Source: a virus
Virus record (IMG/VR): IMGVR_UViG_3300028591_000144
DNA length: 33,480 nt
Direction: 5' to 3' (one strand)
Of this stretch, positions 15,608 to 26,259 are shown piece after piece; position 1 is the first letter of the stretch; every line of letters begins with the position of its first letter. The notes beneath the pieces were generated by a model, which was not told where the DNA came from, searched no databases, and worked only from the letters and a program-made list of their open reading frames with translations. The position numbers were made by a program, and so were the translations under genes.

Positions 15608-15662
15608 TGGAGCGTCTAATTGGCGCTCCATTTGCGCGCGTCCCTCGCGCAAATGGAGCGTG
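15608..15662 (+). repeat. hairpin-C family member with triple-arm arrangement
   Basis: atggagcg (15608-15615), cgctccat (15625-15632), atggagcg (15654-15661). The middle arm can pair with either flanking arm. Preceded by a CT-rich tract 15566-15606. Confidence 0.7.
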
Positions 15663-16384: not shown

Positions 16385-16424
16385 CGCTCGCTCCACGCAC
16401 GTTTCCTTGCGTGGAGCGAGCGAG
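16385..16424 (+). repeat. hairpin-C family member
   Basis: gctcgctccacgc-acgtttccttgc-gtggagcgagc. Confidence 0.65.
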
Positions 16425-16545: not shown

Positions 16546-16701
16546 ATGACTGAATTAATGGAAATGAAAGAAAAAGTTATAGCGCAGTATGGCAAAGACA
16601 GTTTTGAGGCCGGGTATATTCAATATATCTTTTCTAAACGTCCTACAGCATATTTTAAAAAAATTTGTATTGAATTGCTCACTAAAAAAAATAAAAAATA
16701 A
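16546..16701 (+). CDS. hypothetical protein (51 aa)
   Basis: SD AAAGGAGATCAAG. Manual ORF. Confidence 0.5.
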   Translation: MTELMEMKEKVIAQYGKDSFEAGYIQYIFSKRPTAYFKKICIELLTKKNKK

Positions 16702-16740
16702 TATAAAAAAAAACAAAAGAAAAGAAAGGAAATAAAAAAA

Positions 16741-17067
16741 ATGAAAACTAACATGACAGCCCACGCCAAATTTGATCGAGTCAACCGCCTGGAATATATC
16801 ATTAATACTATTGGTATTGGAAATGTAGTAGCTGAAATCTCTACTATTGATAAACAGGGACGAGCTGGCTTCCAGAAGCTGACAGATACAGGAGTTATTA
16901 TTATTCTCTCTGCTGATAATAAAACTATTGTCACTGCTTATATAGCTACCCCAGATCAGGCTTGCGCTGTTTATAAAACAGCAAAAAAAGTTAGCAGGGT
17001 GCCTGATGGACTGTATAGTAGAATCCGTAAAAATGAAGCTATTATGAAAAAGCAGCCTAAGTTTTAA
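16741..17067 (+). CDS. hypothetical protein (108 aa)
   Basis: ORF track. SD GAAAGGAAAT. Confidence 0.65.
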   Translation: MKTNMTAHAKFDRVNRLEYIINTIGIGNVVAEISTIDKQGRAGFQKLTDTGVIIILSADNKTIVTAYIATPDQACAVYKTAKKVSRVPDGLYSRIRKNEAIMKKQPKF

Positions 17068-17077
17068 TGTAAAAATA

Positions 17078-17110
17078 GGAAAGAGAAAAAAACTCTTTCC
17101 TATTTTTATT
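17078..17110 (+). terminator. rho-independent terminator
   Basis: aggaaagag-aaaaaaa-ctctttcct + ATTTTTATTT. Confidence 0.8.
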
Positions 17111-17111
17111 T

Positions 17112-17150
17112 GGCGTTTCCTTTGCGCGCGTTCCTTGCGCAGAGGAAACG
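17112..17150 (+). repeat. hairpin-C family member
   Basis: gcgtttcctttgcgc-gcgttccttgc-gcagaggaaacg. Confidence 0.65.
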
Positions 17151-17211
17151 AGTTATCCTTTTTGTTTACAATGTATAATTTTTTTTATATTTTTTTGTGC
17201 ATTATTACATA

Positions 17212-17239
17212 TTGCAAATTTCCTAAAAAGTGCTATAAT
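17212..17239 (+). promoter_or_regulatory. sigma70-type promoter TTGCAA-16-TATAAT driving a non-coding transcript
   Basis: Hexamers read from sequence. Confidence 0.65.
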
Positions 17240-17245
17240 CATAAT

Positions 17246-17345
17246 TGTCAAGGGGGAACGGAGAGAGTACGAGGCAAAAAGTCGTAAGACCTCTCGTGAG
17301 GGTGACATAATCAACGAGCCACGCGCCGTGAAAGTTTTTTTAAAA
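17246..17345 (+). ncRNA. candidate sRNA locus (family 1, copy 1)
   Basis: Own promoter and no ORF. Begins AATTGTCAAGGGGGA. Ends with hairpin plus AAAGTTTTTTT, just before the next promoter. Homologous start and end at 31965-32115. Confidence 0.5.
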
Positions 17346-17361
17346 AAAATAAGAAAACCCC

Positions 17362-17390
17362 TTGATATCTTTTCAGAAGTATGATATAAT
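17362..17390 (+). promoter_or_regulatory. sigma70-type promoter TTGATA-17-TATAAT (TG-extended)
   Basis: Hexamers read from sequence. Confidence 0.75.
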
Positions 17391-17425
17391 TAAATCACAA
17401 AAAAAATAAAAAGGAGATAAAAAAA

Positions 17426-17995
17426 ATGAATACTATTCTTGATTGTACTGTTACCACTCGTTGCCCCTTCTGCGGAAAATCCAATGATGTTAAAGTCAAT
17501 GAGATGGACTATCTTGATTGGCTGGATGGTAAACTGGCGCAGAAAGCATTCCCCTACCTCTCTGCTGATGAGCGTGAGATGCTGATTTCTGGCATCTGCC
17601 CTGCTTGCTGGGATTCTACATTCGGCTCTGATGAAGAGCCTGACCCCGATGAAGTAGACATTCATGGAAATACTTTTGGGGATGATGAAGAAGAAGAAAA
17701 TGAAAAAAATGAAGAAGATTCTGAGATGGAAAAATTGATGTCTGCGCTTACTGCTTACAACATCCCGTATGAAACGACTATTGATTGTACTGGAGAAGGT
17801 CTGCAAGTTTGGTATCCTTCGCGTGATGATAATATTTGTGACGTGATTTGTCATAAATATTCTTATGGCGGATCAGAAGGACTCCTGGAAATGATGGGCC
17901 TTGTCCCTGATGACTGGGGAGATAGCGTACAGGGATATCTGACCGCAGAAGAAGTATTCGGGCGTATTCACGCTAATTACTTTGGCACAGTTTAA
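17426..17995 (+). CDS. zinc-ribbon plus acidic-tail protein (189 aa). N-terminal 85 aa paralogous to 28387-28656
   Basis: ORF track. SD AAAGGAGATA. Motifs CPFCG...CPACWD. D/E-rich middle region. Confidence 0.75.
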   Translation: MNTILDCTVTTRCPFCGKSNDVKVNEMDYLDWLDGKLAQKAFPYLSADEREMLISGICPACWDSTFGSDEEPDPDEVDIHGNTFGDDEEEENEKNEEDSEMEKLMSALTAYNIPYETTIDCTGEGLQVWYPSRDDNICDVICHKYSYGGSEGLLEMMGLVPDDWGDSVQGYLTAEEVFGRIHANYFGTV

Positions 17996-18002
17996 TAAAA
18001 AA

Positions 18003-18058
18003 ACAGAGGAAATGCTTTGAGCGTTTCCTCTGCGCGCGTTCCTTGCGCAGAGGAAACG
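18003..18058 (+). repeat. hairpin-C family member with triple-arm arrangement
   Basis: cagaggaaa (18003-18011), tttcctctg (18023-18031), cagaggaaacg (18047-18057). The middle arm pairs with either. Confidence 0.7.
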
Positions 18059-18118
18059 TCTTTATATCATAGACAAAGTATACAAAAATCCAGGATAAAA
18101 GTTGTATATTATGTCATA

Positions 18119-20365: not shown

Positions 20366-20423
20366 TTTATCTTTTGAGTATATTGCACAATTTCCAGGCT
20401 ATATTTTTGTATATTTTTATAAT

Positions 20424-22904: not shown

Positions 22905-22943
22905 GCGGCTCCTTTGCGCGCGTTCCCTGCGCAAAGGAGCCGA
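22905..22943 (+). repeat. hairpin-C family member
   Basis: ggcggctcctttgcgcgc-gttccc-tgcgcaaaggagccg. Confidence 0.7.
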
Positions 22944-23003
22944 GTTTAAGTTATTGTAAAAAAAGCATAATTTTTTATATTTATTTTTGTATAATTTAAC
23001 ATA

Positions 23004-25847: not shown

Positions 25848-26135
25848 CGTTCCAAGGGAAATGCACTTAATCCTTGAGAACAGTGTGAATGGACAATACA
25901 CTTGACTTCGAACACACTATAATCAAAAGAAGATAGTGTTGACTTTGGGACTTTTACCAGTTTATATTTTTGTTTCAAAAGGCAAACAAAGGGAGAATAA
26001 ACTGGCGCTCGGCAGGCGTTTAGTGCAAAACTGCCTGCCGATGTGTGAAATGCGCTTACCAAAAAAATAGAAAAAAAGATTAAAAAAATTGGAAAAACGC
26101 ACTTAACTTTTGTTTTTAATAATCATATAGAAAGT
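25848..26135 (+). ncRNA. candidate non-coding RNA locus (family 2, copy 1), upstream of tRNA-like gene
   Basis: Own promoter and no credible ORF. Starts ATAATCGTTCCAAGGGAAA. Contains stem-loop ggcaggc...gcctgcc. Homologous start at 27401. Confidence 0.45.
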
Positions 26136-26214
26136 GAGAAGAACCTTTGACAGGCAAAGGTCACTGTTCGAGTCAGTAAAGTGGTCACGATGGGTTCAAC
26201 TCCCATTCTTCTCA
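26136..26214 (+). tRNA. tRNA-like gene, best fit anticodon CGA (Ser). 79 nt, no encoded CCA
   Basis: Cloverleaf folded by hand. Perfect 7-bp acceptor gagaaga/tcttctc. D-arm cttt-gacaggc-aaag. Anticodon loop TTCGAGT (U33, R37). T-arm atggg-TTCAACT-cccat. Variable arm of 11 nt is atypical for Ser. Confidence 0.55.
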
Positions 26215-26230
26215 AAAAACAAAAAGATAC

Positions 26231-26259
26231 TTGATAAATTACCAAAAGTATGGTATAAT
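26231..26259 (+). promoter_or_regulatory. sigma70-type promoter TTGATA-17-TATAAT (TG-extended) with about 125-nt purine/pyrimidine-tract leader
   Basis: Hexamers read from sequence. Leader contains agagagaagagagaa and ttcttctctctctt complementary tracts. Confidence 0.7.

What the first reader, a model, noticed from the sequence alone, without database searches (positions are those of the whole stretch)
17246..17345. Promoter-driven sRNA-like locus, homologous to a second copy at 31965-32115
A near-consensus promoter (17212-17239) is followed by about 100 nt with no ORF and a hairpin/T-run. Directly after it comes another promoter for gene 17426. The transcript begins AATTGTCAAGGGGGAACGGAGAGAG. 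The copy at 31965 begins AATTGTCAAGGGGAGAGATGAGATG. Both end in AAAAAAATAA(G/A)AAAACC(AA)CCCC just before TTGA(T/C)A. Two copies with conserved ends but divergent middles, each stacked upstream of another promoter, suggest small regulatory RNAs or transcriptional-interference elements.
Basis: partly seen in the sequence, partly recalled or inferred. Interest (0 to 1): 0.6.

Follow-up and report, generated by a model that had tools for sequence, protein, structure and literature searches.

The report
Promoter leader clamped to next promoter
The two loci are copies of a regulatory cassette common in uncultivated gut and rumen phages, in which the first 10-11 bases made from one promoter can pair with the -35 box of the next promoter; it looks like a non-coding leader closed into a loop rather than a terminated small-RNA gene.

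Summary
Two homologous units exist: A (17194-17390) and B (31919-32154). Each has a special promoter (P1), then ATAATTGTCAAGGGG, a divergent middle, an A/T tract, and CCCCTTGAYA, which is the -35 box of a second promoter (P2).

The start, TTGTCAAGGGG, is the reverse complement of the end, CCCCTTGACAA. This closing stem is predicted in both copies.

The same architecture recurs in more than 200 phage-like contigs and gives 72 units with unrelated middles. The one variable stem position covaries (G-C 37, A-U 25, G.U 10, A.C 2). It also covaries within single genomes (p<1e-4).

Thirteen of 67 families keep the 3' arm where it is not a promoter. That argues for pairing rather than promoter function.

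There is no terminator, no Rfam match, no shared middle and no antisense target, so a classical sRNA gene is not supported.

Best reading: a read-through P1 leader whose 5' end is clamped. This probably protects the 5' end or insulates the leader, but that function is inferred, not shown. I rate it a new variant of known leader and cassette themes, of moderate interest.

The parts
17114..17150 (+). Terminator hairpin of the upstream gene. It belongs to a repeated GCGCGCGTTCCTTGCGC hairpin family.
   Evidence: Terminator scan: 15 pairs, then a T-rich tail.
17194..17226 (+). P1-class upstream motif TTTGTGCATTATTACATATTGCAAATTTCCTAA. It overlaps the weak -35 box.
   Evidence: 5 sites in the window against 0 expected. 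Only two of them precede clamp units.
17212..17239 (+). Promoter P1 of copy A: TTGCAA, 16-nt spacer, TGcTATAAT.
   Evidence: Predicted only; the transcription start is inferred at about 17244-17247.
17245..17255 (+). 5' arm TTGTCAAGGGG, at the predicted 5' end of the P1 transcript.
   Evidence: It pairs with 17358-17367 (duplex -16.0 kcal/mol; pair probability 0.997 in a 182-nt transcript).
17256..17357 (+). Variable interior of copy A. It includes the A/T tract 17335-17357 (T7, A8, TAAGAAAA), which resembles an UP element for P2.
   Evidence: No homologue in more than 200 related loci. Interior z -0.24. No Rfam hit. A/T motif enrichment across families.
17358..17368 (+). 3' arm CCCCTTGATAT. 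It overlaps the -35 box of P2.
   Evidence: CCCC before a -35 box occurs at only 2 of about 35 promoter-like sites in the window, namely these two units.
17362..17390 (+). Promoter P2 of copy A: TTGATA, 17-nt spacer, TGATATAAT. It drives gene 17426-17995.
   Evidence: (11/12 plus TG).
17426..17995 (+). Downstream gene, 189 aa, with an N-terminal Cys-X2-Cys...Cys-X2-Cys motif. Function unknown.
   Evidence: phrog_20898, unknown function. Homologues in other phages lack the unit upstream.
31919..31964 (+). P1-class motif and promoter P1 of copy B: -35-like TTGTAT at 31937-31942, TGcTATAAT at 31956-31964.
31970..31980 (+). 5' arm TTGTCAAGGGG of copy B.
   Evidence: duplex -18.1 kcal/mol; pair probability 1.0.
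31981..32121 (+). Variable interior of copy B. It folds into an extended interrupted hairpin and contains an unsupported 41-aa ORF at 31990-32115.
   Evidence: Whole unit z -4.07. ORF, with no homologue. No Rfam hit.
32122..32132 (+). 3' arm CCCCTTGACAG of copy B. It overlaps the -35 box of P2.
32126..32154 (+). Promoter P2 of copy B: TTGACA, 17-nt spacer, TGATATAAT.
   Evidence: 12/12 plus TG.
32177..32184 (+). Second-tier 5' arm GGTCAAGA in the P2 transcript. Within it, GTCAAGA (32178-32184) pairs with TCTTGAC at 32232-32238.
   Evidence: (pair I2).
32232..32262 (+). Second-tier 3' arm TCTTGAC (32232-32238) and promoter P3 (TTGACA at 32234-32239, TATAAT at 32257-32262).
32427..32777 (+). Downstream gene, 116 aa. 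Genes that appear related by eye sit behind stacked promoters and clamp units in several other phage contigs.
   Evidence: similar N-terminal reads MTKREMFAEIR.../MGNKMTYAVAI... in L001, L003, L004, L007, L009; relatedness not tested by alignment. (phrog_30233 and phrog_19455, unknown function). (weak hit to Enterococcus phage VRE9).

Best explanation
Each locus is a tandem-promoter leader cassette.

P1 is a distinct promoter class. It has a roughly 45-bp conserved upstream motif, a weak -35 box and an extended -10 box. It starts transcription at about AUUGUCAAGGGG.

Because there is no terminator, RNA polymerase reads through the non-coding interior, through the UP-like A/T tract and P2, and into the gene.

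Once the -35 region of P2 (CCCCUUGAYA) has been transcribed, it pairs with the first 10-11 nucleotides of the RNA. This closes the whole P1-specific leader into one loop domain.

Transcripts started at P2 carry neither arm, so the clamp marks only P1-derived mRNAs.

The most likely role is to bury the 5' end. A 5' end with no more than about 3 unpaired nucleotides should resist 5'-end-dependent decay by RppH, RNase J1 or RNase E. The clamp would also keep the variable leader from mispairing with the downstream ribosome-binding region.

Shown by sequence and comparison: the architecture, the complementarity, its covariation, and its persistence where the 3' arm is not a promoter.

Inferred: promoter activity, the transcription start position, read-through, and the stabilising or insulating role.
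For: (1) The closing stem is in the MFE of both copies. It has pair probability of at least 0.997 when downstream sequence is included.

(2) The cassette is widespread. There are 13 exact hits to a 24-base signature in viral contigs. A shorter signature gives 72 viral loci, a 21-base form gives 20 genome-bin loci, and the shorter signature gives 120 or more metagenome loci.

(3) Of 203 distinct starts, 124 have CTTGAYA 25-200 nt downstream. These fall into 72 clusters with unrelated interiors.

(4) Stem position 9 covaries at cluster level: G-C 37, A-U 25, G.U 10, A.C 2. On the smaller first set, Fisher's test gave 7e-7. The tool count on 59 distinct arm pairs is GC 25, AU 19, GU 9, and 0 of 500 shuffles reach the observed score.

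(5) Pairing is specific to each unit within one genome. In 32 contigs that carry both arm types, 72 of 92 units are Watson-Crick at position 9. Permutation within contigs gives 45.7 (p<1e-4).

(6) Compensatory switches occur inside homologous families. L055 differs from L003, L061 and L176, and L044 differs from L199.

(7) CCCC or CCTC precedes the -35 box at 40 of 60 promoters that follow such a start, against 48 of 658 other promoters (p 2.5e-26).

(8) In 13 of 67 families the 3' arm has no -10 box behind it. In L013 a tRNA follows directly. In about 10 families the real promoter lies 25-30 nt further on. The sequence CCCCTTGAYA is kept all the same.

(9) The closing stem is in the MFE of 66 of 67 family representatives, with mean pair probability 0.97.

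(10) Arm spacing ranges from 55 to 163 nt with no helical periodicity. This fits an RNA helix better than protein-mediated DNA looping.

(11) Some starts without a distal arm have a proximal partner instead (UUGUCA...UGACAA within 32 nt; 14 cases). Pairing of this 5' end is therefore a recurring theme.

(12) Established knowledge: 5' secondary structure stabilises mRNA because RppH and RNase E need single-stranded 5' ends. B. subtilis RppH needs at least 2 unpaired 5' nucleotides (review PMC3997798).
Against: - No transcript data exist. Promoter activity, the start site and read-through are all predictions.
- A simple local hairpin would protect a 5' end just as well, so protection alone does not explain why the partner is usually the next -35 box.
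- About 23 starts of the same type are plain short 5'UTRs with no partner. The conserved 5' sequence therefore has a reason to exist that does not depend on pairing.
- The G.U versus A.C asymmetry that would prove RNA-level rather than DNA-level pairing is 10 to 2. This is only suggestive (about p 0.1 by my own binomial estimate from the counts).
- Columns 3-10 and 25-31 of the stem were fixed by the search patterns and carry no information.
- The interiors of A and B have no relatives, so their own structures cannot be tested by comparison.
Confidence: 0.45

Rival explanations
1. It is a discrete small RNA. The clamped 100-165-nt domain is cut out of the P1 transcript by an endonuclease at or next to the closing stem. 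It then acts in trans, with the clamp serving as a generic scaffold for diverse RNA cargos.
For: The closing stem and some internal hairpins keep pairing through changes on both sides. One family carries a tRNA T-arm-like hairpin. Copy B is strongly structured (z -4.07). In L013 the unit precedes a tRNA, and tRNA precursors are processed.
Against: No terminator is present. No sequence or seed is shared between families. Mean interior z is -0.6, the same as on the opposite strand. No antisense target stands out in the window. No Rfam family matches. By my reading, the 10-11 bp stem of copy A is short for RNase III.
Confidence: 0.17
2. It is a DNA-level element. The two arms are inverted binding sites for one protein, such as a repressor or sigma region 4. 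One site lies at +1 of P1 and the other at the -35 box of P2, so both promoters are controlled together.
For: The arms sit at classical operator positions. The 5' motif also occurs at promoters with no partner. The arm sequence is simply the extended -35 consensus, CTTGACAA.
Against: Position 9 covaries within units even when both variants coexist in one genome. A single protein specificity does not predict that. There is no helical phasing over spacings of 55-163 bp. G.U combinations outnumber A.C 10 to 2. Free-standing 3' arms occur away from promoters and directly before a tRNA.
Confidence: 0.12
3. It is an evolutionary by-product. Stacked promoters and orphan leaders are scars left when genes are deleted or shuffled between repeated terminator-promoter cassettes (as with PeSLs), and the unit has no function of its own.
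For: The window is full of repeated terminator hairpins and strong promoters between small genes. Homologues of gene 17426 in other phages lack the unit. Interiors are unrelated and mostly unstructured.
Against: Scars do not explain the CCCC/CCTC extension that matches GGGG/GAGG, the compensatory switches inside families, or the retention of non-promoter 3' arms.
Confidence: 0.1
4. Copy B is a small protein gene. P1 drives the 41-aa ORF at 31990-32115, using GGGGAG as its ribosome-binding site.
For: The ORF starts with ATG. GGAG lies 7 nt upstream. The ORF spans the interior exactly.
Against: No homologue was found among 5.8 billion proteins. It was not called on the independent contig L218. 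Copy A has no counterpart. ORF lengths are not conserved in related families (8 versus 29 codons by my reading of L004 and L001). The predicted helix would bury both the ribosome-binding site and the start codon.
Confidence: 0.05

Closest known systems
5'-terminal stem-loop and polypurine '5' stabilizers' of bacterial and phage mRNAs (ompA, papA and aprE leaders; the SP82 polypurine stabilizer; cryIIIA STAB-SD). These are listed in the review PMC3997798.
   Same: The helix begins at or within about 3 nt of the predicted 5' end of a read-through leader. The 5' arm is itself a purine-rich, Shine-Dalgarno-like run (AAGGGGAGA or AAGAGGAAAG). The context is the early region of a phage that uses sigma-A/sigma-70-type promoters.
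   Different: The partner strand lies 55-163 nt away, and in about 80% of families it is the -35 box of the next promoter. The helix therefore encloses a whole variable domain rather than forming a small local hairpin. No stability data exist.
PeSLs, the promoter-early stem-loop cassettes of T4-type phages (PMC2839356, PMC4122927).
   Same: [quoted passage not shown] Both lie between small non-essential genes in a plastic early region, and copies are shared within and between genomes.
   Different: In a PeSL the stem-loop is a local terminator upstream of the promoter. Here the conserved pairing links a transcript start to the following promoter. These phages have no detectable DNA similarity to any deposited phage over 16700-18000. 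Recombination at these cassettes was not tested.
Tandem early promoters followed by a processed leader, such as T7 A1/A2/A3 with the RNase III site R0.3 (from my own knowledge).
   Same: Two or three strong promoters about 100 nt apart precede the first gene, and the promoter-proximal RNA is non-coding and structured.
   Different: The T7 site is a local hairpin of roughly 20 bp or more, downstream of all three promoters. Here each promoter interval has its own 10-11 bp clamp that uses the next -35 box.
Y RNAs and YrlA (PMC4201824).
   Same: Sizes of 80-165 nt, a stem formed by the 5' and 3' ends, a variable loop domain, a tRNA T-arm-like hairpin in one family, and occurrence in phages.
   Different: There is no GGUCCGA-like Ro-binding motif. 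No ORF in the window is long enough for a Ro60/Rsr protein. No covariance-model match was found. The interiors are not conserved.

Membership tests
Classical bacterial or phage sRNA gene (own promoter, intrinsic terminator, conserved seed) | Its own promoter directly upstream | tested here: met
   Consensus scan and reading of the sequence. This is a prediction only.
Classical bacterial or phage sRNA gene (own promoter, intrinsic terminator, conserved seed) | A Rho-independent terminator that defines the 3' end | tested here: not met
   No terminator-like site lies within 17245-17368 or 31970-32132. The T-run of copy A follows only a 4-bp stem, and copy B has no T-run.
Classical bacterial or phage sRNA gene (own promoter, intrinsic terminator, conserved seed) | A conserved sequence or seed, and identifiable targets | tested here: not met
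   The interiors have no homologues. There are 72 unrelated interior clusters. Antisense matches in the window are no better than shuffles. Host targets cannot be tested.
5'-terminal stem-loop mRNA stabilizer | The helix starts within about 0-3 nt of the transcript's 5' end | tested here: inconclusive
   The -10 box ends 5 nt before the 5' arm (at 17239 with the arm from 17245, and at 31964 with the arm from 31970). A start 5-8 nt downstream of the -10 box would leave 0-3 unpaired nt. No start site has been mapped.
5'-terminal stem-loop mRNA stabilizer | It is part of a translated mRNA, so the transcript reads through into a gene | tested here: inconclusive
   There is no terminator before the gene, so read-through is inferred.
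5'-terminal stem-loop mRNA stabilizer | It lengthens mRNA half-life in a way that depends on pairing | not testable with these tools
   This needs decay measurements with disrupting and restoring mutations.
PeSL regulatory cassettes | Repeated units of a strong sigma-70-like early promoter plus a stem-loop terminator between small genes | tested here: met
   One search finds 25 terminator-like sites against 10.3 expected, including a family of six hairpins that share a GCGCGCGT...GCGC core. One search lists about 35 promoter-like sites.
PeSL regulatory cassettes | They mediate indels or shuffling by recombination in T4-type phages | not tested
   Homologues of gene 17426 lack the unit, which is compatible with shuffling but does not test it. 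The phage type is unknown.
Y RNA / YrlA | A stem formed by the 5' and 3' ends, and a size of about 80-130 nt | tested here: met
   Copy B is somewhat longer, about 163 nt.
Y RNA / YrlA | A Ro-binding motif (GGUCCGA-like) and a match to the covariance model | tested here: not met
   The arm is UUGUCAAGGGG. There are no Rfam matches at E<=1 for either copy, and no Y RNA/YrlA match at E<=10 for the T-arm-bearing family.
Y RNA / YrlA | It is encoded next to a Ro60/Rsr (TROVE) gene | tested here: not met
   The longest ORF in the window is 336 codons, on the opposite strand, and no TROVE hit appeared among the ORFs scanned. The rest of the phage genome was not seen.
RNase III processing site (T7 R0.3 type) | A helix of roughly two turns or more | tested here: inconclusive
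   Copy A has only the 10-bp closing helix. In copy B the helix extends to more than 25 interrupted pairs. Most families have 10-12 pairs.

The most novel reading that the evidence does not exclude
The clamp is a previously undescribed, widespread phage RNA device. The -35 hexamer of a constitutive early promoter doubles as the 3' strand of a helix with the 5' end of the transcript from an upstream promoter of a different class. That helix acts as a universal scaffold that presents, and perhaps releases by processing, many unrelated 50-140-nt RNA cargos. Some cargos are tRNA-like. This would amount to a large hidden family of phage non-coding RNAs comparable in layout to Y RNAs.
Probability: 0.15. 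Interest if true: 0.75.

Novelty: new variant of a known kind. Interest (0 to 1): 0.5.

Why it matters
If the clamp works as proposed, a single DNA segment serves as both a promoter -35 box and one strand of an RNA helix. The phage would then handle mRNAs of the same gene differently depending on which of two stacked promoters made them.

The motif is simple and searchable, and it occurs in hundreds of uncultivated gut and rumen phage contigs. It could therefore mark early regions and transcription starts in phages with no cultured host. It could also be a ready-made part for stabilising or insulating transcripts.

If instead the units are released RNAs, they would be a large unexplored class of phage non-coding RNA.

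Tried and rejected
- **Rfam.** I ran it at gathering thresholds on the window and at E<=1 on both units. I also ran it on 13 related loci and at E<=10 on a T-arm-bearing unit. The related loci gave only ordinary tRNAs. The T-arm unit gave one 17-nt local match to the T-arm of the tmRNA model.
- **tRNA scan.** One tRNA-Ser was found at 26135-26215, unrelated to the units.
- **Deposited phages.** No DNA match to 16700-18000 in near or distant mode.
- **Stop-codon recoding.** I considered it as a reason for the lack of long ORFs. Recoding TGA or TAG gave no clear gain, so I rejected it.
- **Interior homology.** None between A or B and more than 90 loci.
- **Interior folding z-scores.** Not different from shuffles on average, nor from the opposite strand.
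- **Helical phasing of arm spacing.** None.
- **Antisense targets in the window.** None beyond the self-complementary T/A run.
- **Small-ORF reading of copy B.** No homologue.
- **Natural variants of the units.** L097 and L218 are identical to the window. The divergent 5' end of L220 is an inverted fold-back of the copy-B hairpin, which is an assembly artefact.
- **Downstream proteins.** No PDB relatives, and only unknown-function PHROGs.
- **Antisense promoter from the reversed TTGACA at the 5' arm.** No usable -10 box follows on the minus strand, by my reading of the sequence and.
- **6S-RNA-like mimicry and Y RNA membership.** Considered and not supported (see the membership test).

Full report
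**What is in the window**

The region is the + strand of a phage-like stretch. It is packed with small genes, about 35 sigma-70-type promoter-like sites and repeated terminator hairpins.

At copy A a terminator hairpin (17114-17150) is followed by a promoter I call P1. P1 has -35 TTGCAA at 17212-17217 and TGcTATAAT at 17231-17239. After it comes ATAATTGTCAAGGGGG. About 100 nt follow with no credible ORF. Next come an A/T tract (17335-17357), CCCC, and a second promoter P2 (TTGATA-17-TGATATAAT, 17362-17390). P2 drives gene 17426-17995.

Copy B has the same order. Its P1 -10 box is at 31959-31964, and the same ATAATTGTCAAGGGG follows. About 140 nt later comes CCCCTTGACA, the -35 box of P2 (32126-32154). 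A third promoter P3 (32234-32262) follows, then gene 32427-32777.

The two copies align well over P1, the start, the A-rich end and P2, but not in the middle. The P1 core occurs exactly twice in the window against 0.07 expected by chance.

The conserved start and the conserved end are reverse complements. In copy A, 17246-17255 pairs with 17358-17367, giving 10 bp with one G.U. In copy B, 31970-31980 pairs with 32122-32132, giving 10 Watson-Crick pairs plus a terminal U.G.

Both stems appear in the minimum-free-energy folds. Their pair probability is at least 0.997 even when downstream sequence is allowed to compete.

CCCC in front of a -35 hexamer occurs at only these two of the window's promoter-like sites. 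A weaker second-tier pair, GTCAAGA (32178-32184) with TCTTGAC (32232-32238), links the P2 transcript to the -35 box of P3.

**The cassette is widespread**

A 24-base signature spanning the P1 -10 box and the start found 13 viral contigs, all with the same architecture. The sources are mainly rumen and gut samples, and contigs reach 241 kb.

Of 203 distinct starts, 124 have CTTGAYA 25-200 nt downstream. Their interiors fall into 72 clusters with no detectable similarity to one another.

**Evidence that pairing is selected**

The search patterns fix most of the stem, so only the inner positions carry information.

- **Position 9 at cluster level.** The counts are G-C 37, A-U 25, G.U 10, A.C 2 and other 5. 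On 59 distinct arm pairs the tool count is GC 25, AU 19, GU 9, and no shuffle reaches the observed covariation.
- **Not a lineage effect.** In 32 contigs that carry both GGGG-type and GAGG-type starts, 72 of 92 units are Watson-Crick at position 9. Shuffling partners within a contig gives 45.7 (p<1e-4).
- **Switches within families.** Two families with homologous interiors show the double change GGGG/CCCC to GAGG/CCTC.
- **Specific to these promoters.** Promoters that follow such a start have CCCC or CCTC before the -35 box in 40 of 60 cases, against 48 of 658 elsewhere.
- **Kept without a promoter.** In 13 of 67 families the 3' arm is not followed by a -10 box. In L013 a tRNA starts 5 nt after it. 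In about ten families the real -35 box lies 25-30 nt further on. CCCCTTGAYA is kept in all of them.

The 3' arm is therefore maintained for complementarity, not only as a promoter element.

**RNA or DNA?**

Several points favour RNA:
- Arm spacing (55-163 nt) shows no helical periodicity.
- G.U combinations outnumber A.C 10 to 2.
- Internal hairpins in three families keep pairing through changes on both sides.
- The stem begins at the predicted transcript start.

None of this is proof. By my own estimate the G.U/A.C asymmetry is only about p 0.1.

**What it is not**

- Neither unit contains a terminator-like site. The T-run in copy A follows a 4-bp stem and pairs with the neighbouring A-run in the fold.
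- No Rfam family matches, even at E<=1.
- The interiors of A and B have no relatives.
- Across families the interiors are A-rich (42% A). On average they fold no better than shuffles, and the opposite strand behaves the same (mean z -0.6). Copy B is an exception, with whole-unit z -4.07.
- No antisense target stands out within the window.
- The 41-aa ORF in copy B has no homologue and was not called on an independent contig.
- The most enriched interior words (TTTCAAA, TTTGAAA, AAAGTTTT) belong to the A/T tract just before the 3' arm. From my own knowledge of the UP consensus, this tract resembles an UP element for P2.

**Context of P1**

The roughly 33-nt motif upstream of P1 occurs at five sites in the window (17194, 19165, 22243, 31919, 32919), plus a degenerate copy near 22985. 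Four of these six promoters drive genes directly through short 5'UTRs. Only two carry the clamp.

Conversely, the TTGTCAAGRGG start also follows ordinary TTGACA promoters in other phages. In about 23 cases it is a plain 5'UTR with no partner, and in 14 cases it pairs with a nearby UGACAA.

So P1 looks like a separately regulated promoter class stacked on a constitutive promoter. That arrangement would let the downstream gene be expressed under two regimes, and the clamp is specific to the upstream-promoter transcript.

**Most likely mechanism**

P1 transcripts read through P2 into the gene. When the P2 -35 region emerges, it pairs with the 5' terminus and closes the leader.

A 5' end with no more than about 3 free nucleotides should resist pyrophosphate removal and 5'-end-dependent nucleases. 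The review read here states that RppH and RNase E need single-stranded 5' ends, and that B. subtilis RppH needs at least two unpaired nucleotides. It also states that occlusion of the 5' end, or a strong Shine-Dalgarno-like sequence, stabilises long downstream RNA in Bacilli (PMC3997798).

Enclosing the variable leader would also keep it from interfering with the shared ribosome-binding region.

I put about 0.75 on the claim that the clamp is a selected pairing, and about 0.45 on the whole model including the stabilising or insulating role.

The rivals are a processed, released RNA, a paired DNA operator, recombination scars and a small protein gene. They are scored separately.

**Comparison with known systems and novelty**

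The closest concepts are 5'-terminal stem-loop and polypurine stabilisers, the PeSL terminator-promoter cassettes of T4-type phages (PMC2839356, PMC4122927), and stacked early promoters with a processed leader, as in T7. Y RNAs resemble the overall layout, but their defining motif, protein partner and model match are all absent.

I found no description of a transcript start paired with the next promoter's -35 box. My paper searches did not query that feature directly; they covered PeSLs, 5' stabilisers and Y RNAs. The absence therefore rests mainly on Rfam and my own knowledge.

I rate the finding a new variant of a known kind, of moderate interest. It is a clean, widespread and easily testable motif, but there is no functional evidence yet.

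Noticed in passing
window 15623-15661, 16385-16422, 17114-17150, 18021-18059, 22906-22942, 32838-32876: This is a family of long terminator hairpins that share a GCGCGCGT...GCGC centre with variable outer stems. Each lies just upstream of a promoter, an arrangement like the PeSL cassettes of T4-type phages.
   Followed up: partly
window 17194, 19165, 22243, 31919, 32919 (and a degenerate copy near 22985): A conserved promoter class has the upstream motif TTTGTGCAWTATTNCATNTTGNANNTTTCCTAA, which contains the inverted repeat GCAATA-N5-TATTGC over the -35 position. This suggests a regulator-binding site. Only two of the six promoters carry clamp units.
   Followed up: partly
window 20386-20404 and 31899-31917: The 19-nt motif CACAATTTCCAGGCWATAT occurs twice against 0 expected, each time just upstream of a promoter. 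Its function is unknown.
   Followed up: no
window 11884-11907: A run of about 24 A residues lies in the 5'UTR between the promoter at 11838-11866 and the ATG at 11921. The promoters at 11838 and 15042 share the start GGGCTTGCCCGA.
   Followed up: no
window 31990-32115: A 41-aa ATG ORF lies inside copy B, with GGAG 7 nt upstream. No homologue was found, and it was not called on contig L218.
   Followed up: yes
L025, L035, L060, L074, L089, L125, L167, L192 (units after TATAATnATAATTGTCAAGGGG): One family of clamp units contains a tRNA T-arm-like hairpin (GGGTTCGAATCCC). It gives a local match to the T-arm of the tmRNA model (E 0.006). The family may be a decayed tRNA or a tRNA-like module.
   Followed up: partly
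L013 3801-3990: Here the 3' arm CCCCTTGACAA is followed after 5 nt by a tRNA gene rather than by a -10 box. The clamp unit therefore serves as a tRNA 5' leader.
   Followed up: partly
L073, L075, L090, L091 (genome bins labelled Anaerovibrio, Veillonellaceae, Lachnospiraceae and Selenomonadaceae): An apparently bacterial gene whose product begins like a PTS EIIB protein (judged by eye from the N-terminal sequence) has the same TATAATAATAATTGTCAAGGGG start. This may hint at the host group or may be a chance match.
   Followed up: no
L220 1-125: The 5' end of this short JGI contig is an inverted copy of the sequence downstream of it, centred on the perfect hairpin of copy B. This is most likely a fold-back assembly artefact.
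   Followed up: yes
window 26135-26215: A tRNA-Ser (anticodon CGA) is followed immediately by a strong promoter at 26231-26259.
   Followed up: no
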